A DNA stretch of 63,971 nucleotides, counting the filler, from an uncultured Methanosarcinales archaeon (GTDB lineage Archaea > Nanobdellota > Nanobdellia > Woesearchaeales > UBA12501), in the NCBI GenBank assembly GCA_964397315.1. It is 7 parts of 4 records of this genome, joined end to end, with 100 filler letters (N's around TTAATTAATTAA, not from the genome) between each part and the next. Parts side by side here need not be neighbours in the genome. Positions count along the whole stretch, not along the records: positions 27,154 to 50,319 come from CAYNHV010000002.1; 6 more parts are not named here. The stretch is one strand, 5' to 3'. Below the pieces are notes generated by a model, which made no database searches, was not told where the DNA came from, and was given only the letters and a program-made list of their open reading frames with translations. Positions 2,397-42,298 of this stretch are shown one piece after another. Numbering within the stretch: position 1 is the stretch's first letter; each line of letters opens with the position of its first letter. A program made the translations under genes and the position numbers.

Positions 2397-3374
2397 ATGG
2401 CAAGAAAGCCGTCTATAAGCGTGTGCATACCCAACTACAATTATGGCAGATATCTTCCCCAAACTATTAATTCTGTCCTAAACCAGAAGTTCGGTGACTT
2501 TGAAGTCCTTGTTATTGACAACAGGTCAGAGGATAATTCTGTTGATGTTGTAAAAAGATTTGAAAAAAAGGACAAGAGAGTAAGGCTTATCATCAATGAG
2601 AGGAATGTTGGAATGGCAGGTAACTGGAACAAGTGCCTTGAACACGCTTCAGGTGAATTCCTTCTCATACTTAATGCAGATGATTTCCTGCATCCCGGCA
2701 TGCTGCAGAAGCTACACTCTGCAGCTCAAAAGCATAATGCTGACATAACCTTCTGCGACAGGATAAGGTATATAGAAGATAAGAACAGGTATTCAAAATC
2801 AAAGAGCTTATACAAGTCTTCAGGCATTATAAGCTATAAAAAAGTTATTAAAGACCTTTTTACAAGGAACAAGATGATAATGGTCGGCTCTTTCCTGGTG
2901 AAAAGAAAGATAATAAACACGCGATTCAATGAGAAATTCAGGCAGATAGGGGACATGACATGGCTGATGAAACTTCTCATAAGCCTCAGGAGAGATCCTC
3001 ATTACATAAAAAAGAGTATGCTGTACTTCAGGGTGCACTCAAGCAATATAGGCCTTCCTACAAATCCTGAAAAGTATGAAAGGATTCTGAGGGAGAGGGC
3101 CATGGAGTATGGGGAAATCAAAAATGCAAAAGGCTTCAGCAGGATGAAGTGGCTTTTCAGGCTCTACAAGCCAAGAAGGGATGTTGATCTTTTTATCCAG
3201 TTTGTTCTTGGGACGGGGGTGGTGCACCACAGAATAAAAGATATGCTCAGGAACTGGAGCTTGTGGATCAGTAAGTATTTCAATCCTCTCTATCTACCCA
3301 TATATCCCTGGGAGTTCATCTTCCTGGCATCAAGAACGCTGTTCAGGAAGATTGCAGAAAGAGGGTCTAAATGA
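2397..3374 (+). CDS. Glycosyltransferase family 2
   Basis: ISVCIPNYN, DNRSEDNS, NVGMAGNWN, LNADD. Confidence 0.93.
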   Translation: MARKPSISVCIPNYNYGRYLPQTINSVLNQKFGDFEVLVIDNRSEDNSVDVVKRFEKKDKRVRLIINERNVGMAGNWNKCLEHASGEFLLILNADDFLHPGMLQKLHSAAQKHNADITFCDRIRYIEDKNRYSKSKSLYKSSGIISYKKVIKDLFTRNKMIMVGSFLVKRKIINTRFNEKFRQIGDMTWLMKLLISLRRDPHYIKKSMLYFRVHSSNIGLPTNPEKYERILRERAMEYGEIKNAKGFSRMKWLFRLYKPRRDVDLFIQFVLGTGVVHHRIKDMLRNWSLWISKYFNPLYLPIYPWEFIFLASRTLFRKIAERGSK

Positions 3375-3396
3375 GCTATTTTGATATATATTCAGA

Positions 3397-4113
3397 TTAA
3401 TACTTAAATTCTTCCTCAAACCTTTTGAGGGATTCTGGAGTGCCGAATTCCCAAACCTCTGTGGAGTGGTCCAGCATTATTTTCTTTCCGGAGTTTATAA
3501 GCTCGTTGTAGGCGGGCCCCACATAAAATTCATTGTTGGTTGTTATGCCTTTTTCAATCATCCTTTCAGCTGCCCATACAAAGTCGCTTCCCTTGCTGAA
3601 GTGGTACATTCCTACTGTAGCATGGATTGAGATGGGCTTCTTCTCAGCAACCTCAACAACAAATCCGTTCTGGCCAGTTTTTGCATAGCTGAATCTTGGA
3701 TTGCGTGACTCAAATACTGTAATTATGCCGTCAATGTCCCTCTTTTGCAGGGTCTCCTGCAGGTCTGACCTGAAGAATGTGTCTGTGTTGAATATTATGA
3801 GGGGCTCTGGCTTGTTAATATGCTCTTTCGCCAGCAGTACAGTGCAGGCCTGCCCTCTTGTTACATTCTCAACAGGTATTATGATACAATTTGGGTATCT
3901 CTTTTTCAGTTCCTTGTCAATATTGTGCTCATCAATGTGCTCTTTCAGGCATATGAATATGAGGGTTTGCTTTTTCAGGTCAAGGAAATCAAAGCTTTTT
4001 AGCGCCCACTCAAACATTGGCCTGTCTTTGGCTTGAATCAGGGGCTTTGGGATGTTCCAGCCAGCCTCAAGAAATCTTCTCCCTTCTCCTGCTATTGGGA
4101 TTGCGATTATCAT
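3397..4113 (-). CDS. Nucleotidyltransferase-fold capsule biosynthesis protein
   Basis: IPIAGEGRRF..PKPLI, TRGQACTV, AEKKPIS, NNEFYV, FGTPE. Confidence 0.85.
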   Translation of the reverse strand: MIIAIPIAGEGRRFLEAGWNIPKPLIQAKDRPMFEWALKSFDFLDLKKQTLIFICLKEHIDEHNIDKELKKRYPNCIIIPVENVTRGQACTVLLAKEHINKPEPLIIFNTDTFFRSDLQETLQKRDIDGIITVFESRNPRFSYAKTGQNGFVVEVAEKKPISIHATVGMYHFSKGSDFVWAAERMIEKGITTNNEFYVGPAYNELINSGKKIMLDHSTEVWEFGTPESLKRFEEEFKY

Positions 4114-4472
4114 TTTTCTTTCGCCATCTTCTTGAGGAAGTTCTCATCTATCTTTTCCCAGTCCTCAAACCTTATTGACCTGTCACAGATGTAAATCTCA
4201 GCGTTGGGCCTGCCGAAAATGAGTTCATCATAGGGTATGTCATGCTTTTTCAGCCATTCCCGGGTTATGTCTCCAACTCTTTTTTCAACAAGAGAGACAT
4301 CACCATTGCAGGTTTTCATGTGCCTGGCTGAATGAATTATAATGTAGTGCCCCTTACTCTTGAGGTCCTTGATCTTTTCAACAGCCCCTTTTTTGGGCAT
4401 CACATCAGCGTAGCTCCCCCCTTCCTTCTTAAGCTCGCTTATTGTCCCGTCAAGATCAATCACTATTCTCAT
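4110..4472 (-). CDS. HAD-family capsule biosynthesis phosphatase (EcbF/BcbF-like)
   Basis: IDLDGT, HSARHM, IPYDELIFG; overlaps both neighbours. Confidence 0.85.
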   Translation of the reverse strand: MRIVIDLDGTISELKKEGGSYADVMPKKGAVEKIKDLKSKGHYIIIHSARHMKTCNGDVSLVEKRVGDITREWLKKHDIPYDELIFGRPNAEIYICDRSIRFEDWEKIDENFLKKMAKEK

Positions 4473-6096
4473 CAAGCACCTCATTGAGTATTCTTATGGC
4501 GTTCAGGTACATTGCGGTCTGCTTATCCCTGCTGTCATTGTGTAGAGGGATCATTGAGAGGAAGAGCAGGCCCTCTATAAATCTTACTGTTTTTAGGTCC
4601 CATCCATAGTCCTTTAACATGCTTGTGAAGATCTTTTTTATTTCTTCTGTGTTGCTGTTGGAGTATATCTCAAGCTTGTACTGTCCCTCTGCTTTTTTGC
4701 TGACGCTGAAAAGGTTGTTGATTATAAAATCATATTTCCCCTCCACAGAATGGAGGAGCTTTGCAAGATCATACCTTATATCCCCATGTATGCCCTCCCT
4801 GCCAAAGGAGCCTCTGGGGTCAACAAGCTTCATAACCCTGTTGTTCAGGTCATAAAGAATGTTCGGAAAGCACAGGTCGCCATGGATTATAGTGCAGTTC
4901 CTGGAATCATAAAGGCTGCCTGCAAATTCAAGTATTTGCTTCTCCAGGAGGGGATAATTTTTCATTTCAACCCCGTTTATTGAGATCCTCTCTTCTGAAA
5001 GAAGTCTCTTGAATTCCCTGTCCTGCTTCAGCTTTTCTGTCCTTCTTTTAGTCTTTTCAACATACATATCATCAAAATGCTTCCTGTCCAGTTTTCCCTT
5101 GTGGCTGCTGAATATCTCAATAACCTCAAATATGTGCCTGAAAACAGACCTCCACAAGTGCAGAGGAAGGTTCTCATAGACAAAATAGTCGCTTAAGGTT
5201 GTATAGCCATAATACTCCATCTTCACCCACATATCATTATCTTCTAATGAAAAGTCTATAACCCTGGGAGAGAGAACTTTCAGCTCTTTCGGAAGTGACA
5301 GGTACCAGTTTATCTCGTTCCTGAACTTGGACGATTTCCTGCTTTTCTTAGTGAGCACTCCAAGGACATCATCAACATCAATTGTGTTGAACTCCCTGGA
5401 CTGCAGCAGCCTCTTTTTTGACCTGTAATAATTATCTATGTTACCGCAGTCAAACCACTGCTCAACCCTTTCAGCATGGATTCTATGCTTGCTCATGTAG
5501 TAGTCCAGCGCAAGGCTTATCTCATACTTCCTTTCATCATCAGAGCTGATTGCGCGCTCAATACACTCAAAAAAGAAAGGCGCATCCCTCAAGTAATACA
5601 CGCCAATCAATGCATTAGGCTGCTTGTCATAGTTTTCAGGCTTGTCAATAAACCTGCTTACAGTCCCGTCAGGGCCAGCCTCCACAAGACACCACCTGCG
5701 ATGCTCATCTGTCTCAGAATAAAGCACAAAATCCCTTGACAAATCCATATCCTGCCTGAATATGGTATCGCCAAGAACAACAAGAAGATCGCCTGTCATC
5801 TCAAGCTTTTCAGCTGCTTTTATGGAGCAGGAAGGGCCTGCCATACTATCGGGCTCTGTGAACCTCACGCTCATCTTCCTGCTGTAAACCCTTTTTACGT
5901 AATCAACCAGCTTCTCCTTGTTCTCCTTCACCACCAGAATAACATCCGAAAAACCGCTCTCATAAAGGTAATCCAGAATCCACCCTATCACGGGCTTGCC
6001 ATTAAGGGGCACCATGGATATGTGAGTATTGACATCAAAAGGGACAATCTTGTTCCCGTCTGATTTCGCGCATGGTATTACAACAGTGGGTTTCAT
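4456..6096 (-). CDS. NTP-transferase-like domain fused to aminoglycoside/choline-kinase-like domain (capsule biosynthesis)
   Basis: N-terminal GDTI, DKP, WFDCG; C-terminal HGDLCFPNIL, LVDPRG, YDLAKL. Confidence 0.85.
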   Translation of the reverse strand: MKPTVVIPCAKSDGNKIVPFDVNTHISMVPLNGKPVIGWILDYLYESGFSDVILVVKENKEKLVDYVKRVYSRKMSVRFTEPDSMAGPSCSIKAAEKLEMTGDLLVVLGDTIFRQDMDLSRDFVLYSETDEHRRWCLVEAGPDGTVSRFIDKPENYDKQPNALIGVYYLRDAPFFFECIERAISSDDERKYEISLALDYYMSKHRIHAERVEQWFDCGNIDNYYRSKKRLLQSREFNTIDVDDVLGVLTKKSRKSSKFRNEINWYLSLPKELKVLSPRVIDFSLEDNDMWVKMEYYGYTTLSDYFVYENLPLHLWRSVFRHIFEVIEIFSSHKGKLDRKHFDDMYVEKTKRRTEKLKQDREFKRLLSEERISINGVEMKNYPLLEKQILEFAGSLYDSRNCTIIHGDLCFPNILYDLNNRVMKLVDPRGSFGREGIHGDIRYDLAKLLHSVEGKYDFIINNLFSVSKKAEGQYKLEIYSNSNTEEIKKIFTSMLKDYGWDLKTVRFIEGLLFLSMIPLHNDSRDKQTAMYLNAIRILNEVLDENSD

Positions 6097-12466: not shown

Positions 12467-12467
12467 T

Positions 12468-27272: not shown

Positions 27273-27377
27273 GGGCCAGTAGCTCAACCTGGATGCAATA
27301 GCAGGGGATTAGAGCGCCGCATTGGCTATTAACAACCAAAGATGCGGAGGCTTCGGGTTCAAATCCCGACTGGTCCA
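27273..27377 (+). tRNA. tRNA-Ala(GGC) with two short introns (D-loop and 37/38)
   Basis: G3:U70 acceptor GGGCCAG/CTGGTCC; BHB helices CCTG/CAGG and TTGG/CCAA. Confidence 0.85.
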
Positions 27378-28717: not shown

Positions 28718-28849
28718 ATGATAAACTTAACAAAGAGCATGGACAGGATGCACATCTATATAGATGGTTTCCTTGTAGTGCTGCTGACAATCATACTGAC
28801 AATCATAACTTTCATGCTGATATTATGGCTCATAAAAGGTGTTAACTGA
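28718..28849 (+). CDS. 43-aa single-TM peptide (absent from ORF track)
   Basis: Hydrophobic stretch; TGATG overlap with next ORF. Confidence 0.45.
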   Translation: MINLTKSMDRMHIYIDGFLVVLLTIILTIITFMLILWLIKGVN

Positions 28850-29154
28850 TGAAAAGAAACACATATCTTAATATTATGTCAGCAGTGTCTCTTCTGCTGA
28901 AGATCGTGGGGTTAATCATTGGTATTACTGCTCTTTTCCTTATTGCATGGAAAGTTTTTGGAGCCAGCCCAACTTCTGATTCAGTGATAATTACTGTAAT
29001 ATCCCTTCTGACAGCGCTTATCTGCGCTAATATAGCACTGAATTTCAAAATGATGTATAAGATGGGCTGCATGGAAACAGATCTGAAACATATAAAGAAA
29101 ATGACTTATGCCATTGCAAGGAATCTAAGAAAGCACATCCAGCAAGGACATTAA
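28849..29154 (+). CDS. Hypothetical membrane protein
   Basis: Two TM segments and a helical tail. Confidence 0.65.
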   Translation: MKRNTYLNIMSAVSLLLKIVGLIIGITALFLIAWKVFGASPTSDSVIITVISLLTALICANIALNFKMMYKMGCMETDLKHIKKMTYAIARNLRKHIQQGH

Positions 29155-33502: not shown

Positions 33503-33503
33503 A

Positions 33504-34031
33504 ATGGCATTTTTAGACAAGCTCAAGTTCTGGAAAAGCGGTGACGAGCCCCTGAAGCCTCTTGGAGGTGAAGGAGGCGGCTTTGGAGGGGAGACAGCAG
33601 GCGCTTCCCAGGGAGCAGGAGGCACAGGAACAGACAGCGCAGGAGGAGGGGGAGACTCTGCCCCGGGCCTTGGTGGAACAGGAAGCCTTGGAGAGATGCC
33701 CGGAGCAGGCTCAGGAGAGGGGCAGCCCCAGCAGAGCTACCCACAGCAACAGCCCCAGAATCCTGCAGGAGCACCAGCTGACTCTGACCTTTCCCTTAGA
33801 GGGCCGAGCTATGAAAAGCCGCCTGAATCAGGTGACTTGAGGCACGCTCCCCTGTCTCCTGCTGAGAGGCAGCAGCCCCAGCAAGGCAGCTCAGGCCAAG
33901 TATCTCATGACGCAGAAGTGCTTTCAGCCAAGCTTGACGCGATAAAAGCCAACATTGAAAGCATAAACCACAGGCTTGAGTCAATAGAGAGGGTTGTGAT
34001 GAACCAGGAGAGGAGAAGGGTGCAGTGGTAG
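33504..34031 (+). CDS. Low-complexity hypothetical protein with C-terminal coiled coil
   Basis: MAFLDKLKFWK start after GGAGG; G/Q/P-rich; LSAKLDAIKA..ESINHRL. Confidence 0.75.
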   Translation: MAFLDKLKFWKSGDEPLKPLGGEGGGFGGETAGASQGAGGTGTDSAGGGGDSAPGLGGTGSLGEMPGAGSGEGQPQQSYPQQQPQNPAGAPADSDLSLRGPSYEKPPESGDLRHAPLSPAERQQPQQGSSGQVSHDAEVLSAKLDAIKANIESINHRLESIERVVMNQERRRVQW

Positions 34032-34039
34032 CCTGCTGC

Positions 34040-35116
34040 CTAATACTCCCGGTTTATTAGGAAGTCAGAGATTCCAATCAGAAAGTCTTTTCCCTCTTCT
34101 CTCAGCTCAGCTTTTTCCAATGACCTCCTTGCTCTGGTTATAAGGTCTTCTGCAAGCTTTCTGGAATAATCCAGGGAGCCTGTCTCAGTTATTATCTTCC
34201 TGACTTTTTCTATCTCATCTTTTGAAATGCCCTTTTTTCCAAGAGCATCAAGCAGGATGTTTTTCTCCTCTTCGCTGCACTTCTCAAATGCCTTGACAAT
34301 CAGCAGTGTTATCTTGCCCTCCTTCAGGTCAGAGCCCACAGGCTTGCCCAGCTTCTTCTCATCACCAAACATGCCCAGAATGTCATCCTGTATCTGAAAC
34401 GCCTGGCCAAGAGGAGCTGCAAATTCGTTCAGGGCCTTAAGGTCCGATTCCCCTGCTCCTGCAAGCACAGCCCCCATGTGAAGCGGACCCTCCACAGTGT
34501 ATGATGCTGTCTTGTACTTATTTACCTTCATGACATCCTCTTCCGTGACTTTGTGAACAGGCCTGCTGTATATCATGGTCTCAAGCAGCCAGCCGTATTC
34601 TGTCTTAAGGGCAGCCTCATGATATTTTCTGAGAGAGGAATTTACCCTGGCTGCATCAAATCCTGAGAGCAGGAGCGCCTCATTTGCCAGAGAGTTCTGC
34701 ATGTCAGCGGCAACAATAGCTATGCTCTCTCCGAATCTTTTTGGAGATATGCTCTTAAGATGACCGTATCTGTTCTCATAAACCTTGTGAAGCGTAGGGC
34801 CGCCCCTCCTGAGCTCGTCCTGGTCAAGAACATCATCATGTATCAGAAAAAAACCTTCCATAAGCTCAACAGCAAGCGAGGAGCGAATGAGATCCTGCTC
34901 GTCATCAGGTTCTGCAAAGCATTTGTAGCCATGCATCATCAGTGCAGGCCTTATCCTCTTGCCTCCCCTGAGGTTGAATTCCTTCAGGTTCTTCATCAGC
35001 TCAGCAGCAGAGCTGTCAACCTTTTCCGCCTCTTTTATCTTCCTGTCAAAGAATTCAGACAGCGCAGAGTCTATCCTCTGCTTGTAGTCCCTCAGCTTTT
35101 CCATTGCGCCTGCCAT
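34040..35116 (-). CDS. idsA: Polyprenyl (geranylgeranyl) diphosphate synthase
   Basis: GGKRIRP, LIHDDVLD.D..RRG, KT, FQIQDD, GSDLKEGK. Confidence 0.93.
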   Translation of the reverse strand: MAGAMEKLRDYKQRIDSALSEFFDRKIKEAEKVDSSAAELMKNLKEFNLRGGKRIRPALMMHGYKCFAEPDDEQDLIRSSLAVELMEGFFLIHDDVLDQDELRRGGPTLHKVYENRYGHLKSISPKRFGESIAIVAADMQNSLANEALLLSGFDAARVNSSLRKYHEAALKTEYGWLLETMIYSRPVHKVTEEDVMKVNKYKTASYTVEGPLHMGAVLAGAGESDLKALNEFAAPLGQAFQIQDDILGMFGDEKKLGKPVGSDLKEGKITLLIVKAFEKCSEEEKNILLDALGKKGISKDEIEKVRKIITETGSLDYSRKLAEDLITRARRSLEKAELREEGKDFLIGISDFLINREY

Positions 35117-35214
35117 GCACGTCTCTTGCCTGCTTCTGTTTAAATTTTTTCCGATTTTTTGGGATGCGGAATTGCAATAAAATTATAAATGAAAACAGAA
35201 TCCTCTCCCTTATA

Positions 35215-35655
35215 ATGGCTATGTGCAGAAACAGGGCGGGATGCACCTTTAAGGGAGTTGCGCTTCTGGTTCTTGTAATTGACATCATAACCAAGATGCT
35301 CGCCAGGAGGCATCAGCCCTCAGGATCCGGAGTCATCAGCATAGACTACACAACCAACACAGGCGCGGCATTCGGCATGATGAAAGAGGGGAATGTGCTG
35401 CTGATTATGATATCCATTGCTGTCCTGGCTGCCATAATCTATATGATGTTCTTCAGCAGGAAAAGGCCTTCAATGGGAACTGCTGTTTTCCTGGGCCTGC
35501 TGGCCGGAGGCGCGCTGGGAAACCTCCTTGACAGGATTTTCTTTGGGTTTGTGACTGACTTCATCAGCTTCAGCTTCTGGCCTGCCTTTAACGTGGCTGA
35601 CATTGCCATAACAACCGGTGTTATAGGCCTGGTTGTGATAATAATGAAAGAATAG
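35215..35655 (+). CDS. lspA: Signal peptidase II
   Basis: NTGAAFG, GNLLDR, VTDF, FNVAD. Confidence 0.9.
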   Translation: MAMCRNRAGCTFKGVALLVLVIDIITKMLARRHQPSGSGVISIDYTTNTGAAFGMMKEGNVLLIMISIAVLAAIIYMMFFSRKRPSMGTAVFLGLLAGGALGNLLDRIFFGFVTDFISFSFWPAFNVADIAITTGVIGLVVIIMKE

Positions 35656-35661
35656 TGTTTT

Positions 35662-36003
35662 TCAGAACTCCTCGCTTTCCTCAAGCCCCTTGAGATAGCC
35701 CTTCTTCTTCAGCCAGTCAACCTGGGACGGCCTGTACTTGAAAAGAACATCGCCCTTGCCCTTGTCATACTCCCAGGGCTCAACGATTATTATGTCACCC
35801 TCCCTTATCCAGAGCCTTCTCTTGAGCCTGCCCGGAATGCGGCAGATGCGGGTCTTTCCGTCAAAGCACCTGACAGACATCCTGCTTCCTCCGAGGCGCT
35901 GCTCAACAACACCAAAGCTCTGCTTTCCCCTGGGAAGCTTGATCCTGCTTATCTCCTGCTGGATCTTCTCCTGCCTTGCCTGCTCTTCCTTCTTCTTGCT
36001 CAT
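35662..36003 (-). CDS. eif1a: Translation initiation factor aIF-1A
   Basis: V.C.DGKTRICRIPG.LK.RLWIREGD. Confidence 0.95.
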   Translation of the reverse strand: MSKKKEEQARQEKIQQEISRIKLPRGKQSFGVVEQRLGGSRMSVRCFDGKTRICRIPGRLKRRLWIREGDIIIVEPWEYDKGKGDVLFKYRPSQVDWLKKKGYLKGLEESEEF

Positions 36004-36056
36004 GAAACACATAAAAAAAGAGGGGGTTTATAAGGGTTTTGGTGGTATAAGGAGTA

Positions 36057-38405
36057 TTAAACACAGCCCCTTATACTTTCTTCTAAACTTCTCCTGCTTC
36101 CAGTATGATAAAAATCACTGAGAAACTCTTGTATGACATTTTTCTTAGAAGGAAGTGAATGCTTTCTTTTTTTCTTAGATCTTCTTTTCTTTTCTCCAAC
36201 CATAGTATCCATCTTCCATGCCAAAGAATTCTTTTTTAAAGGTTCTACACCTGGTTGTGATATCTTCTTCAATCCAGCAAGATAAACTCTGAATTTAGAG
36301 TCTCTAGCTTTATAGAAACCAGAAAATGGTAATACATCAAAACCAAGGCTTTCTAAACCTTTATGGAATTTTTTAAGGTTATTAGATGATATCACAGTAT
36401 AAGGCAAGGTAATCAGGGAATAGCCTCCTGTATCCAAAACTCTATTCATCTCCCTTAATATTGCTTCTCTTTCATTTATCCCACCATCTTTTTGTGCAGA
36501 ATCTAATCTAGTCATATGTAATGCAAGAGAACAAACAGCTAAATCAAATGAATTGTCTGCAAAAGGTAATTGATGCATTGCTCCCTGAACAGATTCATTT
36601 CCAGGTACCACTTTCCCTTCATCCTCAAGTATTTGACCTGCCTTTAGCATATAGTTGCTCAAGTCTAAGTTTGTCACTGGTTCATTTATTACTCTTGATA
36701 AGGAAAACGGTCCAGAGGCAACATCCAGCTTTCTTTCCAGACCATGACTCTCTTGCAAGATATTAACTGCTTGCCCATAAAGACTTGCAGTGTTTCCTGC
36801 ATAATAACCCTCCCAATAAGCAGCATATAATTTTGCCACATACTCCGCTTCCTGAGGATATTTACTATAGTGGGCCATTATTTTGTTAAATCCTTTCCCT
36901 CTCAAAAGGCCCATATGCAAATCCATGCCCCTGATTGGGCTTCTAACTAAAGGAGCTATATGTTTTGATTTCCTTATTTTGCCATTCTTAATTTCATCCA
37001 AGTCTTCCTTTGTCAGCAATAATGGTTTATCCAGAAGATACTCAATAATCCTTTCTTTATCCTGGAGCAATCGTTCCATGCCTTCCGTGACTACTGGAAT
37101 CATGTCTAGATGAGGCATCACTGTGTAAGCATTCACAGACTCTTTATCTATTTCTCCTATTCTCTGCGATCTCCTGTTTCTTTGTTTAAAAGCTGCTGAA
37201 TCATAAGGAAGAGTCAAATGGAAGATATCCGTAGCAGCAGTTAAATCCACACCCTCATCCATGACAGTTGTTGCAATTAAAACCTTGCATTCTGGGTCTT
37301 CCTGGAATCTTCTTCTGGTCTCTTCTCTCTTGCTTAAACCGCCATTATTACTGTTTGAAGTAACCTCTTTATCAATAACTACAGCACCATAATCAGCATA
37401 CCTTCTCTTTAGTCTATTTGTCACACCTTTCCTGAGGTTTGAGAACATAAGTACTTTTCCGCCATTAGAAGTGATTTTATCTATTTTGTCATCTAAAGCA
37501 TCATAGGTGCAGGAATCCATTCTTCCAGATTTAGAAGCCAGTCTCGATTTAAGAAAATCAGGATTAACTAGATTGGGGTCTATGGATGCTTTTATTAACT
37601 GAATTAATTTTGTTGATGGTTTGATATCATCATTGTTGTGGATTGCCATGTAAACATCAGCATGGTCTCCTGTTAACTCTGTTTCAAGATGACTTTGATT
37701 AAGCTTTGGAAATTTATCAGGCAGATATTCCTCAGCCTTTCTTCTTATCATCCTATCCCCTATAAGAGCCCTTCTTACAAATTCGGGATCGCTCCTAAAG
37801 AGGGTGTAAAAACCACTTAAAGCAGCTCTGGTATTGTCTGGATCCAAAGGAAAGCTTTCATTATCCAATAAACTCAACAACATATAGATATCAGGAATAG
37901 TGTTTGGAATTGGTGTTCCAGATAATATGGAGAGGTAATCCACTGAATCAAAGAGTTCCTTCACGCCTCTGCTTCTCGTAGAAGCGGGATTTTTAGCATT
38001 ATGAGCTTCATCAAGGATTCCATACTGAAAATCTAATTTTCTTAAATTATCAATTTTATGTTCATTGCGGCCATAGCGAGACAGAGTGGGGTAACCTACA
38101 ATAATAAAATTATAATCTTCTGCATCTTTTATATCTTGGTCGTAGGAAGTGCATTGTATCTTCTTAATCTTGTTCTTGCCTCCATCATCATACCATATTC
38201 CAATTTCATCTTCCCAATGGTCTGCTACAGAGGCCGGGCAGACAATCAACGTTCTGCCAGTGTATCCTTCTTGCCTGTGGACAGCTTTTGCTCCAATAAT
38301 AGATTCAGCGCACTTGCCCAAGCCCATATCATCAGCTATCAAGATTCTCTTTTTATCTACAAGATCTTTTACAGCTTCCATTTGATAAGCTCTTAACTCA
38401 GGCAT
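36057..38405 (-). CDS. SNF2-type helicase fused to C-terminal class I SAM methyltransferase
   Basis: ADDMGLGK, DEAH, LSGTP, EGVDL, QR..R..RIG; LDVASGP, LPFADNSFD, LALH, RVL..GG. Confidence 0.85.
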   Translation of the reverse strand: MPELRAYQMEAVKDLVDKKRILIADDMGLGKCAESIIGAKAVHRQEGYTGRTLIVCPASVADHWEDEIGIWYDDGGKNKIKKIQCTSYDQDIKDAEDYNFIIVGYPTLSRYGRNEHKIDNLRKLDFQYGILDEAHNAKNPASTRSRGVKELFDSVDYLSILSGTPIPNTIPDIYMLLSLLDNESFPLDPDNTRAALSGFYTLFRSDPEFVRRALIGDRMIRRKAEEYLPDKFPKLNQSHLETELTGDHADVYMAIHNNDDIKPSTKLIQLIKASIDPNLVNPDFLKSRLASKSGRMDSCTYDALDDKIDKITSNGGKVLMFSNLRKGVTNRLKRRYADYGAVVIDKEVTSNSNNGGLSKREETRRRFQEDPECKVLIATTVMDEGVDLTAATDIFHLTLPYDSAAFKQRNRRSQRIGEIDKESVNAYTVMPHLDMIPVVTEGMERLLQDKERIIEYLLDKPLLLTKEDLDEIKNGKIRKSKHIAPLVRSPIRGMDLHMGLLRGKGFNKIMAHYSKYPQEAEYVAKLYAAYWEGYYAGNTASLYGQAVNILQESHGLERKLDVASGPFSLSRVINEPVTNLDLSNYMLKAGQILEDEGKVVPGNESVQGAMHQLPFADNSFDLAVCSLALHMTRLDSAQKDGGINEREAILREMNRVLDTGGYSLITLPYTVISSNNLKKFHKGLESLGFDVLPFSGFYKARDSKFRVYLAGLKKISQPGVEPLKKNSLAWKMDTMVGEKKRRSKKKRKHSLPSKKNVIQEFLSDFYHTGSRRSLEESIRGCV

Positions 38406-39847
38406 TCCAACTCCCTCCCAAGCTCTAAAACATCCTTATAATGCTGAGACAAACCCTGATACAACTCACTCTTTCTACCTTCGTAACTATCAGCCAGTTT
38501 ATCAATATTCTTGATGGTGCCCTCAGGATCCTCATTAAACACGGGGCCATAGGTATACCTCAACAACCTGACAAGCCTGTCCTCCAAAGCAAGAGTAACA
38601 TTCCCTTCAGGTATGACATCTATTGCTTGTCCAATTAAGATAGGGATAATTCCATTACCTTCCAAGGTAAAATCTCCAAGATAAGCTCCAAGATTAGTAA
38701 GGCCGCTCCTTATTACTTTATAAACTTCATCAGTATTCTCTTCAAGAAACTTATGAATGTCCTTCTCATCCCCGAACTTATCTCTATAAATATCCATGAT
38801 TACCTTTTCCATGTCCATCCCTTGACCGTTCAAAGTAATGGCCGCTGCAGCAAGAGTTGCTGCTGCTTCATCATTCTTGAGAAAGTCAATGAATTGATGG
38901 TTGGAGGTTATTTGATCATAGCCCATTTTTTCTCTTACAGCAAGAAGACCATCATGATGAAGGTACATGGCATTGATTAAGCTATATTTCTTCATTTTAC
39001 GAAGTTCTGCTGTCTCTGGGAAATGGCCTAAAATTTTAATCAATCTATTAATTTCATTTTCAACATACCCCCAATCTTTGCCAAAGCCGTTTTTTTTCTT
39101 TAATTCTTTATAACCCATCCTTTTTCTTACCTCGTTTATCCCATCATGATAATTTCCTATAGCTCCAGCCAAACTTATGGGTAATTCTTCATATTTAGGA
39201 AAACGACCTAATTTTTTAATAAGATTTTTTATTTTACTTTCCACATTATTCCAATCTTTAAGGCTGCCTTTTTTTGCTATTAATGGTTCATAACGCATTC
39301 TTTCTCTAACTTCAAAATAGCTGCCGTGATATCTATAGATAGCATTAATAAGAGGGACTTCATTTTTTTGTAGATAACTAGAAGATGGAAAATGCCCAAT
39401 ATCTTTTGTTATTTTTTTCAATTCTCTTTCAACATTTTTAAATTTTTTAAAGCTATTTGATTGATTTTCACCTAGTCTTTTTCTAACCTTTTTAAGTCCA
39501 CCATGGTGGTTATATATTGCAGTTCTTAAATCGCGTCGACCTAAAGCATCAAAGTCTTTAAATTTAGGGTATCTCCCCAATGTTTCTTTTATATCACACA
39601 CCTCTTTTTTGATATATTCCCAGTCCTTGTTTTGTGTTTTTGTTGCTTTGTTTGGTTCTTCGTGACCCATATTTTTTATCACTCTGTTACATCCTCCATG
39701 ATATCTATTTATCGCATTATATAAGCTAGATGCCTTAAGATAGAGTAGCTCTTTCTTGTTTGGGAAGTGGCCTAACACTTCAATTATTTTATTCATTTCC
39801 CTTTCAACATTATCCCAAATTCGCCAATATCCCCTCGGCTTCCTCAT
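38393..39847 (-). CDS. Protein with five ~60-aa helical repeats plus unique C-terminal domain
   Basis: Repeat W..VE.E...I...LG.FP...EL......L..AI..YH.G...VR..MG. Confidence 0.8.
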   Translation of the reverse strand: MRKPRGYWRIWDNVEREMNKIIEVLGHFPNKKELLYLKASSLYNAINRYHGGCNRVIKNMGHEEPNKATKTQNKDWEYIKKEVCDIKETLGRYPKFKDFDALGRRDLRTAIYNHHGGLKKVRKRLGENQSNSFKKFKNVERELKKITKDIGHFPSSSYLQKNEVPLINAIYRYHGSYFEVRERMRYEPLIAKKGSLKDWNNVESKIKNLIKKLGRFPKYEELPISLAGAIGNYHDGINEVRKRMGYKELKKKNGFGKDWGYVENEINRLIKILGHFPETAELRKMKKYSLINAMYLHHDGLLAVREKMGYDQITSNHQFIDFLKNDEAAATLAAAAITLNGQGMDMEKVIMDIYRDKFGDEKDIHKFLEENTDEVYKVIRSGLTNLGAYLGDFTLEGNGIIPILIGQAIDVIPEGNVTLALEDRLVRLLRYTYGPVFNEDPEGTIKNIDKLADSYEGRKSELYQGLSQHYKDVLELGRELECLS

Positions 39848-39865
39848 TTTCCACCTTCAAATTGT

Positions 39866-40324
39866 TCATTTTATAGAGAAATAGCCAAGACAGTTGTCAG
39901 AACCATCTCTAATCCTTTTAGCCTGTGAAGGATCTGCTGCTTTACCATTGATTTTTAGATGTTCTCCCAGAAGCATCCCATCCAAACCGTTTAGATCTAA
40001 GAAATCTGTAATCTTGCCAGCACCTTCAACTACGCCATCATGAAATGCAACTGCTCTTATTTCCACGCATGAAGGGTATGCTCTTCTGTCTGTTGCTATG
40101 TTGAGTAATTCACTGCCCCTATAAGGCATCAAGAACAATGTTCCAGGAGCATACAGCATTCCCTCCCTGGAGGGGGTTATGTTGCCTCCTTCATAAGCTC
40201 CAACCTGCACTATTTGCCCAGAAGTAACTCCTATCTCACTCTCTCTTGATAACTGCCTGCCTAACAAATCTACAGCCACTTCAACGGCGTCTCTTGAAAA
40301 AAATTGCCTATAATTACTTACCAT
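39866..40324 (-). CDS. Degenerate 3-methyladenine DNA glycosylase (Mpg/AAG fold)
   Basis: FFSRDAVEVA.DLLG, G.IV...AY.G, PG, LNI, IRA, G.GK; start uncertain (40348 alternative). Confidence 0.75.
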   Translation of the reverse strand: MVSNYRQFFSRDAVEVAVDLLGRQLSRESEIGVTSGQIVQVGAYEGGNITPSREGMLYAPGTLFLMPYRGSELLNIATDRRAYPSCVEIRAVAFHDGVVEGAGKITDFLDLNGLDGMLLGEHLKINGKAADPSQAKRIRDGSDNCLGYFSIK

Positions 40325-40399
40325 CAGAGGGAGTATTTTAAAGGACATTTATAAAGCTTTCGGTTTGTCACTACTCTAAAATAGAGAAATAAAGGGAAT

Positions 40400-42298
40400 T
40401 TACTCTTTAGCCCCAACCTCCTCCCTCATCTCCTCCAAAAACTCCTCAACCTTCTTCTCGCCGTGCACCTTGTTGTCCCTTGTCCTTATGTTGACTGTTC
40501 CTGCCTTCTGCTCATTATCCCCCACTACCAGTATGTAGTTGATCTGCTGCAGCTGCGCGTCCCTCACCTTCTTTGATGTTGATTCTGCCCTCATGTCAGT
40601 CTCAACCCTTATTCCCGCGTCAAAAAGCTTCTTCCTCACCTCCTCCGCGTAATCATGGTGCCTGTCCGCTATTGGCAGCACTGCTGCCTGCACAGGGCTC
40701 AACCATAGGGGGAACTTTCCTGCGTAATGCTCAATCAATATGCCGATAAACCTTTCAAAAGAGCCGAGGATTGCCCGGTGTATCATCACAGGAGTCTTTT
40801 TTGTTCCGTCCTTTGCCTCATAAGTTGCATCAAACCTCTTGGGCATTGAGAAGTCAACCTGTATCGTGCCGCACTGCCAGTTCCTCCCTATCGCGTCCTT
40901 GATGTTGAACTCTATCTTTGGCCCATAGAATGCGCCCTCTCCCTCTTTTATCCCGTAATTCACCTTTCTCTTCTTTAGGGCGTTCTTCAGCGCTTTGGTG
41001 GCCTTCTCCCATGCCTCATCAGAGCCTATGTGCTTGTCAGGCTTTGTGGCAATGTAAGTCCCCACCTCATTGAAGCCGAACATCCTGTAAAGGTCAACAG
41101 CATAATCAACCATGTCAATTATCTCATCCTCAACCTGCTCCTCTGTGCAGAAGGAATGCGCGTCATCCTGCGTGAAGGCCCTCACCCTGAACAGTCCTGA
41201 CAAGACTCCTGAGAGCTCGTGCCTGTGCACGTATCCGAACTCAGCCCTCCTGAGGGGCAGCTCCCTGTATGAGTGTATTCTGGTTTTGTATATCAGCAGG
41301 CCGCCGGGGCAGTTCATGGGCTTCACTGCAAACTCCCTGTTGTCAATCTTTGTGAAGTACATGTCATCCTTGAAATTGTCCCAGTGGCCTGAAACCTTCC
41401 AAAGTGAGGAGTCAAGTATTGAGGGAGTCATTATCTCTGTGTATCCTCTTTCCCTGTTCTTTTTCCTGGCCAGGCTGAAAAGCTCCTGGAATATCACCAT
41501 GCCCTTTGGGTGCCAGAATGGCATTCCCGGAGCCTCGTCATGGAATGAGAAAAGGTCAAGCTGTTTTCCTATCTTCCTGTGATCCCTCTTTTCTGCCTCT
41601 TCCATCAGCCTGGTGTATTCCTTGAGCTCTTTCTGGGTGTAGAATGATATACCATAGATCCTCTGCAGCTGCGTGTTCCTGGCATCGCCTTTCCAGTACG
41701 CTCCTGCAAGCTTTGTAAGCTTAAACGCCTTTATCATTCCTGTTGAGGGAAGGTGAGGGCCCCTGCAGAGGTCTACGAAATCCCCCTGCTTGTAGGCGGA
41801 GATGCTGCCTTCCATCTCGTTTATCATCTCAATCTTGAACCTGTTGTCCCTGAAAAGCTCAAGAGCCTGCTTTTTAGTGAGCTCAATCCTCTCAAAAGGC
41901 TTATCCTTGTTTATTATCTCCTGCATCCTCTTCTCTATCTTCTTCAGGTCATCAGGATGGAATGGAGGGTGGTCAAAATCATAGTAGAATCCCTCCTCAA
42001 CAACAGGGCCTATGGTGGGCTTTGCCTCAGGAAAGAGCGAAACAACAGCTTCTGCAAGGACATGGGCTGTTGAGTGCCTCAGGATATCAAGAGACTCCCT
42101 GTCTCTTGTGGTTATTATCCTCAGAGAGGAGTCCTTGTCAACAGGCCTGCTAAGATCAACCATCTCGCTGTCAAGGTAGGCTGCAACCGCCTCCTTTGCC
42201 AGCCTCGGGCCTACTGACTCTGCAATCCGCCTTATGGAGGTTCCTTTTTCAAATTTCTTTCCTGAATTGTCAGGGAAGGTTACCTTTATCTCAGCCAT
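40400..42298 (-). CDS. thrS: Threonine--tRNA ligase (bacterial type with TGS and editing domains)
   Basis: HSTAH, DLCRGPH, RDHRK, KPMNCP, FTQDDAH, IHRAILGS. Confidence 0.97.
   Translation of the reverse strand: MAEIKVTFPDNSGKKFEKGTSIRRIAESVGPRLAKEAVAAYLDSEMVDLSRPVDKDSSLRIITTRDRESLDILRHSTAHVLAEAVVSLFPEAKPTIGPVVEEGFYYDFDHPPFHPDDLKKIEKRMQEIINKDKPFERIELTKKQALELFRDNRFKIEMINEMEGSISAYKQGDFVDLCRGPHLPSTGMIKAFKLTKLAGAYWKGDARNTQLQRIYGISFYTQKELKEYTRLMEEAEKRDHRKIGKQLDLFSFHDEAPGMPFWHPKGMVIFQELFSLARKKNRERGYTEIMTPSILDSSLWKVSGHWDNFKDDMYFTKIDNREFAVKPMNCPGGLLIYKTRIHSYRELPLRRAEFGYVHRHELSGVLSGLFRVRAFTQDDAHSFCTEEQVEDEIIDMVDYAVDLYRMFGFNEVGTYIATKPDKHIGSDEAWEKATKALKNALKKRKVNYGIKEGEGAFYGPKIEFNIKDAIGRNWQCGTIQVDFSMPKRFDATYEAKDGTKKTPVMIHRAILGSFERFIGILIEHYAGKFPLWLSPVQAAVLPIADRHHDYAEEVRKKLFDAGIRVETDMRAESTSKKVRDAQLQQINYILVVGDNEQKAGTVNIRTRDNKVHGEKKVEEFLEEMREEVGAKE

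What the first reader, a model, noticed from the sequence alone, without database searches (positions are those of the whole stretch)
36057..40348. AT-rich three-gene island: Mpg-like protein, five-repeat protein and SNF2-methyltransferase fusion
Seen: three co-directional coupled genes (18-bp gap, 13-bp overlap), visibly more AT-rich than the flanks, between thrS and aIF-1A. Established: SNF2 ATPases occur in DISARM and Zorya-type defence systems, and DNA glycosylases can be antiviral. I know of no described system with this combination. Inference: a horizontally acquired defence or base-modification module (modified-base sensor, DNA-binding repeat protein, translocase-methyltransferase).
Basis: partly seen in the sequence, partly recalled or inferred. 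Interest (0 to 1): 0.75.

Follow-up and report, generated by a model that had tools for sequence, protein, structure and literature searches.

The report
Acquired archaeal SNF2-methyltransferase three-gene module
A foreign-looking three-gene insert in an archaeal chromosome encodes a DNA motor fused to a methyltransferase, a partner protein with DNA-binding repeats and a stripped-down DNA-repair-like protein, a recurring but apparently undescribed gene set that may mark or police DNA.

Summary
Three co-directional minus-strand genes (18-bp gap, 13-bp overlap) lie between thrS and aIF-1A. Their GC3 is 0.31-0.34, against 0.56 ± 0.06 for 56 other ORFs.

It matches no known defence system: PADLOC and NCBIfam give only generic SNF2 hits far below cut-offs.

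The SNF2-methyltransferase fusion belongs to a family of about 92 full-length relatives. The five that carry organism names are all Nanoarchaeota-type DPANN archaea.

The middle protein is an adaptor: a variable DNA-binding repeat array plus a conserved C-terminal domain found in at least 93 clusters.

Adaptor and fusion recur together: 7 of 10 clusters checked share a contig, and adjacency is shown twice. A modelled complex passed its controls (0.64 against 0.00).

The Mpg-like protein is a 150-aa mini-AAG. It lacks the catalytic glutamate and is linked only in a subset.

The methyltransferase is class I, with Rrp8/Bud23-like resemblance, and lacks the amino-methyltransferase motif.

Best reading: a horizontally acquired, adaptor-targeted, ATP-driven methylation module. 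Whether it serves defence or epigenetic control is unresolved.

The parts
39866..40348 (-). Mini-AAG (Mpg-like) gene. It is 160 aa as an ORF and probably 152 aa from Met9 (ATG at 40324).
   Evidence: Pfam Pur_DNA_glyco 44.2 bits, profile positions 1-100 of 181. TIGR00567 scores 42.4 against a cut-off of 116. Forty relatives of 148-192 aa were found. The family profile aligns to human AAG at E = 5e-10. The column of catalytic E125 holds G in 22, A in 3 and R in 1 of 26 sequences, and there is a 10-residue deletion where AAG has the loop that I recall carries H136.
40349..40355 (-). TATA-like box (TTTATAA) in the thrS/mini-AAG spacer. It is the candidate promoter of the three-gene operon.
   Evidence: Read directly from the sequence. 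It lies about 28 nt upstream of the Met9 ATG. Its function is inferred, not tested.
38915..39841 (-). Adaptor gene, N-terminal array of five ~60-aa HNH-endonuclease-associated repeats (residues 3-311).
   Evidence: Pfam HNH_repeat 34.9 bits. Motif G[HR][FY]P at residues 26, 91, 151, 214 and 274. DNA repeat family D1. The model is all-helical, with five repeated four-helix units.
38396..38914 (-). Adaptor gene, conserved C-terminal helical domain (CTD, residues 312-484), with no Pfam family.
   Evidence: 111 proteins at E<=1e-3 and 93 at E<=1e-10 among 1.84 billion representatives. In 87 proteins with a near-complete CTD it sits at the C-terminal end (median 1 residue after it, maximum 206), behind a variable N-terminal part of 0-668 aa. 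No PDB match by sequence or fold. It is predicted to dock on the N-terminus of the SNF2-methyltransferase.
36996..38405 (-). SNF2-methyltransferase gene, SNF2 ATPase core (residues 1-470).
   Evidence: SNF2-rel_dom 96.7 bits and Helicase_C 48.6 bits. Motifs GKC30, DEAH132, SGT162 and QRNRR408 are present. K31, D132, E133, H135, G163, T164, Q408, R412 and R415 are invariant in 46 relatives. The closest solved sequence is the Sulfolobus SNF2/Rad54-like ATPase 1z63, E = 3e-20. An SD-like GGGAGGGAG lies 6-14 nt upstream of the ATG, inside the end of the adaptor gene.
36057..36995 (-). SNF2-methyltransferase gene, C-terminal class I SAM methyltransferase region with a basic tail (residues 471-782, plus stop codon).
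   Evidence: Methyltransf_11 52.2 bits; Methyltransf_8 (Rrp8 family) 25.6 bits, below its cut-off of 27. SAM motif LDVASGP at residue 560, with D561 and G565 invariant. No (D/N/S)PP(Y/F/W) motif. The model has pLDDT 89.8. Its best TM-score is to the nucleomethylin/RRP8 methyltransferase domain 2zfu_B (TM 0.78 by target), with Bud23 and many other class I methyltransferases at similar E-values.

Best explanation
The island is a horizontally acquired copy of a conserved but apparently undescribed module.

Shown:
- The core of the module is a two-protein pair.
- One member is an SNF2-type dsDNA-dependent ATPase fused to a class I SAM methyltransferase.
- The other is an adaptor. Its N-terminal part differs between relatives: HNH-associated repeats here, tandem HTH-type matches in most others. 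Its conserved C-terminal domain is predicted in silico to dock on the N-terminus of the ATPase.

Inferred mechanism:
- The adaptor reads a DNA sequence and recruits the enzyme.
- ATP hydrolysis by the SNF2 motor moves along or distorts the duplex, so that a base is presented to the methyltransferase. This is how the SNF2 domain works in fungal Dnmt5.
- The methyl group goes onto a nucleobase, possibly a purine ring nitrogen. The nearest relatives of the domain are Rrp8 and Bud23, which I recall as m1A and m7G rRNA methyltransferases.

The third gene, present here and in a subset of relatives, encodes a minimised alkyladenine-glycosylase fold. It keeps the residues that I recall as DNA-contacting and base-discriminating in AAG, but it has lost the catalytic glutamate. 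I infer that it flips out and inspects the same base, acting as a reader or as a non-canonical excision effector.

Most likely role: restriction-modification-like self-marking or another epigenetic control, which would explain why the set travels as a unit. Defence is the leading guess, not a demonstrated function.
For: Foreign origin:
- GC3 is 0.31-0.34 against 0.559 ± 0.057, and GC drops to 0.30-0.39 exactly over the three genes.

Family:
- Of 96 relatives at 30-60% identity, 92 keep both helicase and methyltransferase domains.
- The 5 named ones are Nanoarchaeia, Nanoarchaeota or Pacearchaeota.
- ATPase motifs and SAM motif I are invariant in 46 sequences.

Pair linkage:
- Of 10 adaptor-CTD clusters looked up, 7 share source and exact contig length with an SNF2-methyltransferase relative (8276 twice, 140035, 9303, 113465, 13081, 106185).
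- One pair has consecutive accessions, HLC55649.1 and HLC55650.1.
- One pair has abutting same-strand coordinates, 2454..4796 and 4789..6033, an 8-bp overlap in the same order as here.
- In the window the pair overlaps by 13 bp, with an SD-like sequence upstream of the second start.

Binding:
- The complex model scored 0.64 (runs 0.64, 0.63, 0.67), and the best of 3 controls scored 0.00.
- That mark was reached by 116 of 157 solved complexes and 2 of 215 mismatched pairs. These counts hold only roughly, because my own alignments were used.
- Runs agree in at least 64% of contacts, and the partner pLDDT is at least 55.
- The interface is SNF2 residues 1-16, 37-44 and 215-227 with adaptor residues 423-441 and 469-484.
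- No similar solved complex exists to copy from.

Adaptor variability (79 CTD proteins scanned):
- 38 have Pfam HTH-type matches in the part before the CTD, many of them at several places along that part.
- 8 match HNH_repeat.
- 27 have no Pfam match.
- One 8.3-kb contig length is shared by two adaptor paralogues and one enzyme.

Mini-AAG linkage:
- It shares contigs with the enzyme at lengths 7341, 19241 and 113465, and with an adaptor at 3294.

Precedents:
- Dnmt5 couples SNF2 ATP hydrolysis to DNA methylation (abstracts seen in the listing).
- PabI-family restriction glycosylases sit next to methyltransferases (PMC10273834, passages).
Against: - No nuclease or other recognised effector is present in the island.
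- PADLOC finds nothing for two of the three proteins, and only generic SNF2 hits for the third.
- The methyltransferase belongs to a class whose characterised members act on small molecules, RNA or proteins. It has no DNA amino-methyltransferase motif. Its fold matches are not discriminating, since dozens of class I enzymes score at similar E-values.
- The mini-AAG lacks the catalytic glutamate, so excision is doubtful.
- The mini-AAG's linkage is partial. Only 3 of the 13 relatives on contigs of at least 5 kb match an enzyme contig in the list I had. The Tara locus and the Nanoarchaeia locus show no detected mini-AAG.
- A family this large and divergent could equally be a vertically inherited housekeeping function of its lineage.
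- The complex result is a model.
- No defence genes lie next to the island; its flanks are housekeeping genes.
Confidence: 0.4

Rival explanations
1. The machine is the same, but its role is not defence. It would be a lineage-typical chromatin or epigenetic regulator. The adaptor targets the SNF2-methyltransferase to chosen loci, to remodel DNA-protein complexes and methylate DNA or a chromatin protein. The copy here was merely acquired by transfer.
For: - The family is large and divergent, with both catalytic domains conserved.
- There is no nuclease or other effector.
- The core pair often occurs without a detected mini-AAG.
- The SNF2 part resembles chromatin remodellers and the Sulfolobus Rad54-like ATPase.
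- The best structural match, nucleomethylin, is recalled as a chromatin-associated protein in eukaryotes (for the match).
Against: - Transfer of the complete three-gene set into a foreign chromosome as a compact unit is more typical of self-contained, selfish or defence modules.
- Adaptor DNA-binding arrays vary strongly between relatives, and two paralogues occur at one locus. That resembles specificity subunits.
Confidence: 0.27
2. The methyltransferase acts on RNA (rRNA or tRNA), and the ATPase remodels an RNA-protein particle. The DNA-related neighbours would then be unrelated to its function.
For: - The nearest relatives of the methyltransferase domain are rRNA methyltransferases. The Rrp8 family model scores 25.6 bits, and the fold matches include nucleomethylin and Bud23.
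- The island sits between two translation genes.
Against: - SNF2-family motors are dsDNA translocases (established knowledge).
- The conserved partner carries DNA-binding HTH or HNH-associated repeats and is predicted to dock on the enzyme.
- The flanking translation genes have host composition, whereas the island does not, so the position is an insertion site and not an operon context.
- The Rrp8 Pfam score is below its cut-off.
Confidence: 0.12
3. The island is a remnant of a virus, plasmid or other mobile element, and its three genes do not work together.
For: - The composition is foreign.
- The best PHROG hit for the SNF2 part is the phage DNA helicase family phrog_62, at 200.6 bits.
- HNH-associated repeats are typical of phage homing endonucleases (Pfam description).
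Against: - The region shows no integrase, transposase, flanking direct repeat or nearby tRNA gene.
- No phage or plasmid record covers at least 80% of the fusion: 0 of 486 matching phage records and 0 of 469 matching plasmid records.
- The genes recur together on other contigs, and the pair is predicted to bind.
- All three ORFs are intact, with conserved motifs.
Confidence: 0.07
4. It is a divergent member of a known SNF2-containing defence system (DISARM, Zorya or Dpd).
For: PADLOC lists ZorD, DrmD and DpdE models for the SNF2 part, the best at 88.4 bits.
Against: - NCBIfam equivalog scores are far below their cut-offs: DrmD 78.5 against 610, ZorD 43.4 against 1500, DpdE 62.8 against 500.
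- The hits cover only the generic ATPase core.
- None of the partner genes of those systems is present.
Confidence: 0.03

Closest known systems
Type I (and single-chain Type ISP) restriction-modification enzymes
   Same: They combine an ATP-driven dsDNA translocase with a methyltransferase. DNA sequence choice is delegated to a module with variable recognition parts and a conserved part that holds it on the enzyme. The adaptor CTD docking modelled and the variable arrays fit that layout.
   Different: - The motor here is SNF2-type, not HsdR-type.
- No nuclease domain is present.
- The methyltransferase lacks the NPPY-type motif of N6-adenine enzymes.
- The adaptor is built of tandem HTH or HNH-associated repeats, not HsdS target-recognition domains.
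DISARM class 1 (DrmD SNF2 helicase with DrmMI methyltransferase)
   Same: An SNF2-family ATPase and a methyltransferase are genetically coupled in a horizontally mobile module.
   Different: - Here the two are fused in one chain.
- DrmA, DrmB and DrmC are absent.
- The DrmD model scores 78.5 against a cut-off of 610.
- The methyltransferase class differs.
Fungal Dnmt5 (SNF2 ATPase fused to a cytosine-5 DNA methyltransferase)
   Same: A single polypeptide joins an SNF2 ATPase to a methyltransferase. In Dnmt5, ATP hydrolysis is required for methylation independently of nucleosomes (abstracts seen in the listing). This is the best mechanistic precedent.
   Different: - Dnmt5 is eukaryotic and carries a C5-cytosine methyltransferase domain in a different domain order.
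- It has no separate repeat adaptor and no AAG-like partner.
- Here the methyltransferase is a Methyltransf_11 class I domain.
Human AAG / bacterial Mpg (alkyladenine or 3-methyladenine DNA glycosylase, Pfam PF02245)
   Same: - The N-terminal half of the fold is shared: the profile matches AAG at E = 5e-10.
- Kept are the counterparts of Y127 (Y52), N169 (N83) and R182 (R98), as read.
- AAG residue numbers and their roles are recalled, not taken from a call.
   Different: - Catalytic E125 is replaced by G, A or R in all 26 aligned relatives.
- There is a 10-residue deletion where the loop that I recall carries H136 lies.
- The recalled wedge residue Y162 is replaced by an invariant Arg, and Y159 by an invariant Met.
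- The C-terminal half is shortened, to about 150 aa in total.
- The TIGR00567 score is 42.4 against a cut-off of 116.
PabI-family restriction glycosylase systems
   Same: These are restriction-modification logic in which a base-excising enzyme is paired with a methyltransferase, including in hyperthermophilic archaea (PMC10273834, passages).
   Different: - The glycosylase fold is unrelated (HALFPIPE against AAG-like).
- The PabI system has no ATPase and no adaptor.
- PabI enzymes are catalytically competent, whereas the mini-AAG lacks the known catalytic residue.
Rrp8/nucleomethylin and Bud23 rRNA methyltransferases
   Same: They are the closest fold matches for the methyltransferase region: 2zfu_B with TM 0.78 by target and rmsd 3.7, and 4qtt (Bud23-Trm112). 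There is also a weak Methyltransf_8 match.
   Different: - The Pfam score is below its cut-off (25.6 against 27).
- Many other class I methyltransferases score similarly.
- Those enzymes are not fused to SNF2 motors and act on rRNA.

Membership tests
SNF2 family ATPases | SNF2-related N-lobe and Helicase_C lobe above the Pfam cut-offs | tested here: met
   SNF2-rel_dom scores 96.7 against 24.9, and Helicase_C scores 48.6 against 23.5.
SNF2 family ATPases | Intact ATPase motifs I, II, III and VI | tested here: met
   GKC30, DEAH132, SGT162 and QRNRR408 are present. The key residues are invariant in 46 relatives.
Class I SAM methyltransferases (Methyltransf_11) | Pfam domain above its cut-off, with SAM-binding motif I | tested here: met
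   The domain scores 52.2 against 21.2. LDVASGP is present, with D561 and G565 invariant. The modelled Rossmann fold has pLDDT 89.8.
DNA N6-adenine / N4-cytosine methyltransferases (as in Type I, ISP, DISARM and BREX) | Catalytic motif IV, (D/N/S)PP(Y/F/W) | tested here: not met
   No such motif occurs anywhere in the 782-aa protein. No N6_Mtase-type Pfam hit was found.
Rrp8 / nucleomethylin methyltransferases (Pfam Methyltransf_8) | Pfam score at or above the gathering cut-off | tested here: not met
   The score is 25.6 against 27. The fold match to 2zfu_B is the best by TM-score but is not discriminating.
AAG/Mpg 3-methyladenine DNA glycosylases | Pfam Pur_DNA_glyco domain above its cut-off | tested here: met
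   The score is 44.2 against 27, but only profile positions 1-100 of 181 are matched.
AAG/Mpg 3-methyladenine DNA glycosylases | NCBIfam subfamily/equivalog score | tested here: not met
   TIGR00567 scores 42.4 against 116.35. The equivalog models score 18.6-34.3 against cut-offs of 182-272.
AAG/Mpg 3-methyladenine DNA glycosylases | Catalytic glutamate (human E125; its role is recalled) | tested here: not met
   The profile aligns ETGAY to ETEAY, and to ETQAY in the chain 1ewn. I recall that entry as the E125Q mutant. The column holds G in 22, A in 3 and R in 1 of 26 relatives.
AAG/Mpg 3-methyladenine DNA glycosylases | Base-excision activity | not testable with these tools
   This needs a glycosylase assay on alkylated and normal DNA.
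DISARM | DrmD equivalog score, and presence of DrmA, DrmB and DrmC | tested here: not met
   DrmD scores 78.5 against 610. The other two island proteins have 0 PADLOC families, and the flanks are housekeeping genes.
Zorya | ZorD equivalog score, and presence of ZorA and ZorB | tested here: not met
   ZorD scores 43.4 against 1500. The PADLOC ZorD hit of 88.4 bits covers only the ATPase core. No ZorA/B-like genes were found among the 48 window proteins scanned.
Dpd (7-deazaguanine DNA modification) | DpdE equivalog score | tested here: not met
   The score is 62.8 against 500.
HNH homing endonucleases | An HNH nuclease domain accompanying the HNH-associated repeats | tested here: not met
   Only the repeat family PF18780 (34.9 against 26) is found in the 484-aa protein. 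No nuclease domain is present.
Type I restriction-modification (architecture) | A separate specificity subunit held on the methyltransferase by a conserved region | tested here: inconclusive
   The layout is analogous: variable arrays plus a conserved CTD, and docking is modelled at 0.64 against a best control of 0.00. No homology to HsdS was detected.

The most novel reading that the evidence does not exclude
The module is a writer-reader system for a ring-nitrogen-methylated purine (such as m1A, m3A or m7G) in archaeal DNA.

- A repeat-array adaptor chooses the sequence.
- An SNF2 motor exposes the base.
- An Rrp8/Bud23-like domain writes the mark.
- A catalytically disarmed alkylpurine-glycosylase fold reads it.

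This would be a new kind of epigenetic or immune mark. It would use chemistry that is otherwise known only as RNA modification or as DNA damage. Its modular, possibly re-targetable DNA-binding adaptors would be a further new feature.
Probability: 0.12. Interest if true: 0.9.

Novelty: new variant of a known kind. Interest (0 to 1): 0.62.

Why it matters
If the pair works as proposed, it is a prokaryotic counterpart of ATP-dependent, SNF2-coupled methylation, which has so far been characterised in eukaryotic Dnmt5.

It would also be a new layout for translocase-methyltransferase systems, with three unusual features:
- a separate repeat-array specificity protein;
- a methyltransferase class not known to act on DNA;
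- in some loci, an alkylpurine-glycosylase fold that has lost its catalytic residue.

A 2026 survey reports that restriction-modification and CRISPR systems are under-represented in DPANN archaea (PMC12988326, passages). An unrecognised marking or defence module in these lineages would help fill that gap.

The variable tandem DNA-binding repeats attached to a constant docking domain also make the adaptor an attractive object for studying, and perhaps re-using, modular DNA recognition.

Tried and rejected
It returned 80 bacterial loci at 23-32% identity and no orthologue. I used none of them. I therefore could not read the DNA around any relative, and neighbourhood evidence had to come from contig lengths, one accession pair and one coordinate pair.
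2. PADLOC, NCBIfam and PHROGs found no system-level match. The mini-AAG and the adaptor have no PADLOC or PHROG family.
3. tblastn of the fusion against the phage and plasmid collections gave 486 and 469 records. All matched only the ATPase part at 28% identity or less, and none covered at least 80% of the query.
4. The fold search of the adaptor model against PDB gave 0 matches at E<=0.001. The listed hits were unrelated helical repeat proteins with TM of 0.2 or less.
5. The ESM Atlas had no usable hit for the adaptor CTD.
6. The BFVD fold search of the methyltransferase model returned only generic class I methyltransferases.
7. I looked for signs of mobility. There are no convincing flanking direct or inverted repeats, no tRNA gene within 8 kb and no integrase or transposase among the 48 window proteins scanned.
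8. The sigma-70 promoter and terminator scan is not informative for an archaeon (16 promoter-like sites against 13.0 ± 3.1 expected), so I ignored it.
9. Two of the three cluster look-ups gave no usable accession pair. The first gave accessions for a single pair only.
10. Literature searches and passages of PMC12988326 and PMC10273834 turned up no description of this fusion, the adaptor family or the mini-AAG family. Supplements were not opened.
11. The host lineage of the window could not be determined with the searches left.
Occurrence of the module in viral or metagenomic contigs therefore stayed unchecked.

Full report
**Observation.** One search lists three minus-strand ORFs: 39866-40348 (160 aa), 38393-39847 (484 aa) and 36057-38405 (782 aa). 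They are separated by an 18-bp gap and a 13-bp overlap. They lie between ThrRS (40400-42298) and aIF-1A (35662-36012), both also on the minus strand (Pfam).

- GC falls to 0.30-0.39 exactly over the three genes, against 0.46-0.52 on either side.
- GC3 is 0.307, 0.307 and 0.342. Fifty-six other ORFs of the window average 0.559 with sd 0.057, which places the three genes at -4.5, -4.5 and -3.8 sd.
- The island is the lowest-GC 4.3-kb stretch of the 64-kb window.

The rest of the window is an ordinary archaeal chromosome. It encodes CDP-archaeol synthase, Nre, RFC, H+-pyrophosphatase, tRNA synthetases and glycosyltransferases. I found no integrase, transposase, flanking repeat or nearby tRNA gene. 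The nearest tRNA gene is about 8.7 kb away.

**Operon signals, read from the sequence.**

- A TATA-like TTTATAA (40349-40355) lies in the 51-bp thrS/first-gene spacer, about 28 nt upstream of the second ATG (40324). The relatives begin at that second ATG.
- The third gene's ATG is preceded by GGGAGGGAG inside the end of the second gene.
- A second TATA-like element (36027-36033) precedes aIF-1A.

The function of these elements is inferred only.

**The SNF2-methyltransferase (782 aa).**

- Residues 1-470 are an SNF2 ATPase. SNF2-rel_dom scores 96.7 bits and Helicase_C 48.6 bits. Motifs GKC30, DEAH132, SGT162 and QRNRR408 are intact.
- The closest solved sequence is the Sulfolobus SNF2/Rad54-like ATPase 1z63 (E = 3e-20).
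- Residues about 555-720 are a class I SAM methyltransferase (Methyltransf_11, 52.2 bits). A lysine/arginine-rich tail follows.
- There is no (D/N/S)PP(Y/F/W) motif and no DNA-methyltransferase Pfam family.
- A model of residues 471-782, built with 46 aligned relatives, has pLDDT 89.8. Its PDB matches are class I methyltransferases at similar E-values.
- The best TM-score is to the methyltransferase domain of nucleomethylin/RRP8 (2zfu_B; 0.78 by target, rmsd 3.7). Bud23 is also among the top hits.
- Pfam's Rrp8 family model scores 25.6 bits, just under its cut-off of 27.

The substrate class is therefore not settled. The resemblance to purine-N rRNA methyltransferases is a lead, not a membership.

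**Known systems.**

- PADLOC gives only ATPase-core hits, the best being ZorD at 88.4 bits.
- NCBIfam equivalog scores are far below their cut-offs: DrmD 78.5 against 610, ZorD 43.4 against 1500, DpdE 62.8 against 500.
- The other two proteins have no PADLOC or PHROG family.
- No phage record (0 of 486 matching) and no plasmid record (0 of 469 matching) covers at least 80% of the fusion.

**The fusion is a family.**

- Among 8000 scored candidates, the 96 best non-self proteins (30-60% identity) include 92 that keep both helicase and methyltransferase Pfam domains at about 700-840 aa. The four exceptions are 460-593 aa and look like fragments.
- Only five carry an organism name, and all five are Nanoarchaeia, Nanoarchaeota or Pacearchaeota. 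The label "DPANN-type" rests on those five.
- In an alignment of 46, the ATPase motif residues and SAM motif I are invariant.
- In a quick tree of 47 rows that I picked by hand from the 96 to span the identity range, the window's protein is sister to P0009 (SH-aLRT 98). It lies inside a 27-row clade (support 95) that contains every case of partner linkage described below.
- The more distant 13-row clade was not examined for partners.

**The middle protein is an adaptor.**

- Residues 3-311 are five ~60-aa HNH-endonuclease-associated repeats. No nuclease domain is present.
- Residues 312-484 form a helical C-terminal domain (CTD) with no Pfam, PDB-sequence, PDB-fold or Atlas match.
- The word-indexed search found only 13 relatives. 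The exhaustive search with the CTD alone found 111 proteins at E<=1e-3, 93 at E<=1e-10 and 67 at E<=1e-30 (these counts include the window's own protein).
- In 87 proteins with a near-complete CTD, the domain sits at the very C-terminus (median 1 residue after it). The N-terminal part before it is 0-668 aa, median 243.
- I scanned 79 of the 110 non-self hits, leaving out short fragments and the weakest hits:
  - 38 have Pfam HTH-type matches (HTH_23, HTH_28, HTH_50 and the like), many at several places along the N-terminal part. The three printed HTH-type sequences (P0179, P0183, P0185) show tandem ~55-aa repeats.
  - 8 match HNH_repeat, five of them above its cut-off.
  - 6 have single odd or weak hits.
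  - 27 have none.

The constant part is thus the CTD, and the variable part is the region before it, which in most scanned relatives carries DNA-binding-type domains.

**Co-occurrence.** I could not read DNA around any relative. The evidence is therefore indirect.

- Of 10 CTD clusters looked up, 7 share source and exact contig length with an SNF2-methyltransferase relative:
  - P0179 and P0183 with P0003 (8276);
  - P0181 with P0031 (140035);
  - P0182 with P0019 (9303);
  - P0185 with P0005 (113465);
  - P0187 with P0008 (13081);
  - P0288 with P0017 (106185).
- Two clusters (contigs of 3128 and 5308 bp) matched nothing. One matched a mini-AAG contig instead (P0287 with P0138, 3294).
- Adjacency is shown twice. 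P0126 and P0023 have consecutive accessions. P0288 and P0017 have same-strand coordinates 4789..6033 and 2454..4796, an 8-bp overlap in the same order as in the window.
- The 8276-bp contig length is shared by two adaptor paralogues and one enzyme.
- P0244 (301 aa) joins an SNF2 N-terminal part to the latter half of a CTD. I read it as a chimera or rearrangement, and give it no weight.

**Binding test.** I folded the full enzyme (alignment of 46 rows) with adaptor residues 312-484 (alignment of 5 rows).

- The score was 0.64 (runs 0.64, 0.63, 0.67), and the best of three controls scored 0.00.
- That mark was reached by 116 of 157 solved complexes and 2 of 215 mismatched pairs. These counts hold only roughly, because my own alignments were used.
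- Runs agree in at least 64% of contacts, and the partner pLDDT is at least 55.
- The interface joins the last helices of the adaptor (423-441 and 469-484, the most conserved stretch) to the first residues of the enzyme (1-16, 37-44, 215-227).
- No similar complex is solved, so the pass is not likely to come from memory.

The model supports binding; it does not show it.

**The first gene is a mini-AAG.**

- Forty relatives of 148-192 aa all carry PF02245. None has an nr name.
- The family profile aligns to human AAG at E = 5e-10.
- The column of the catalytic glutamate holds Gly in 22, Ala in 3 and Arg in 1 of 26 relatives. The match to the chain 1ewn, which reads Q at that column and which I recall as the E125Q mutant, fixes the column as E125.
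- A 10-residue stretch of AAG is deleted. I recall that this stretch holds H136.
- By my reading of the alignments, Y162 corresponds to an invariant Arg and Y159 to an invariant Met. Y127, N169 and R182 have conserved counterparts (Y52, N83, R98).
- The C-terminal half of the fold is shortened and ends in an invariant Asn-Cys.
- The roles of the AAG residues are recalled from the literature, not taken from a call.

The protein keeps a base-flipping, DNA-contacting surface but not the known chemistry.

Its linkage to the pair is real but partial. It shares contigs with the enzyme at 7341, 19241 and 113465. The 113465 contig also holds an adaptor, so all three genes are there, as in the window. 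It shares a contig with an adaptor at 3294. However, only 3 of the 13 relatives on contigs of at least 5 kb match an enzyme contig in my list. The two loci with proven pair adjacency also show no detected mini-AAG.

**Mechanism.**

Shown:
- a foreign three-gene unit;
- a conserved adaptor/enzyme pair with intact ATPase and SAM motifs;
- variable DNA-binding-type N-terminal regions on a constant docking domain;
- in-silico support for docking.

Inferred:
- The adaptor selects DNA sites and recruits the enzyme.
- The SNF2 motor uses ATP to translocate or distort the duplex so that the methyltransferase can reach a base. Dnmt5 does this (abstracts in the listing).
- The mini-AAG, where present, flips and inspects the target base.

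The layout resembles Type I restriction-modification: specificity subunit, methyltransferase and translocase. The pairing of a methyltransferase with a glycosylase-fold protein recalls PabI restriction glycosylases (PMC10273834, passages).

Several points weigh against a defence role:
- No nuclease is present.
- The methyltransferase class is not known to act on DNA.
- The mini-AAG has lost its catalytic residue.
- No defence genes are adjacent.
- The size and divergence of the family would also fit a lineage-typical housekeeping function.

I therefore hold the machine-level reading with moderate confidence and the defence role with less.

**Novelty.** Ten literature searches and passages of two papers found no description of the fusion, the adaptor family or the mini-AAG family. 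Supplements were not opened, and subscription journals are not covered. The parts belong to known domain families, and the logic resembles known translocase-methyltransferase systems. The combination and the adaptor are new. I rate it a new variant of a known kind.

**Left open.**

- The DNA neighbourhoods of relatives are unread.
- The host lineage and the donor are unknown.
- The methyl acceptor is unknown.

Noticed in passing
window 11607-14132: A MazE-like antitoxin-domain protein (11607-12422, +), an AbiEii-type nucleotidyltransferase toxin (12652-13416, -) and an adjacent unassigned ORF (13359-14132, -). This is a likely AbiE-type toxin-antitoxin or abortive-infection pair, more than 20 kb from the island.
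   Followed up: no
window 21794-21887, 26117-26204, 26821-26934, 27273-27377: Four tRNA genes of 88-114 nt by Rfam, presumably intron-containing. ARAGORN found only two of them and misread their anticodons as 'gtta' and as a stop-reading 'tta'. Long ORFs under table 11 argue against stop-codon reassignment.
   Followed up: partly
window, six mostly intergenic sites between about 12.3 kb and 57.9 kb: Six pairs of 44-base runs of N, each pair separated by 12 bases (528 N in all). They look like masked copies of a roughly 100-bp element. None lies in or next to the island.
   Followed up: no
window 28849-29154: A small ORF (101 aa) with GC3 0.382 and no Pfam match. It is the only other strong compositional outlier among the 59 ORFs listed.
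   Followed up: no
window 35104-35655: A signal peptidase II (lipoprotein signal peptidase, Peptidase_A8, 114.6 bits) in an archaeal chromosome. It lies just beyond aIF-1A.
   Followed up: no
window 36001-36033: aIF-1A has two in-frame ATGs (36012 and 36003). A TATA-like CTTATAAA (36027-36034) lies about 27 nt upstream of the second. This suggests a leaderless transcript starting at 36003 and a promoter of its own downstream of the island.
   Followed up: partly
protein P0244 (relative, not in the window): A 301-aa protein in which the first ~173 residues of an SNF2-methyltransferase are joined directly to the latter half of an adaptor CTD. It may be an assembly chimera or a rearranged locus.
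   Followed up: partly
proteins P0179, P0183, P0003 (relatives, contig length 8276): Two adaptor paralogues (594 and 651 aa, each with a long run of tandem HTH-type repeats) appear to share one 8.3-kb contig with a single SNF2-methyltransferase. This resembles multiple specificity genes at one restriction-modification locus.
   Followed up: partly
window 33483-34031: A 182-aa Gly/Pro/Gln-rich low-complexity ORF with unusually high GC (0.57) and no Pfam family. It lies directly after a 908-aa DUF11/CARDB surface protein.
   Followed up: no
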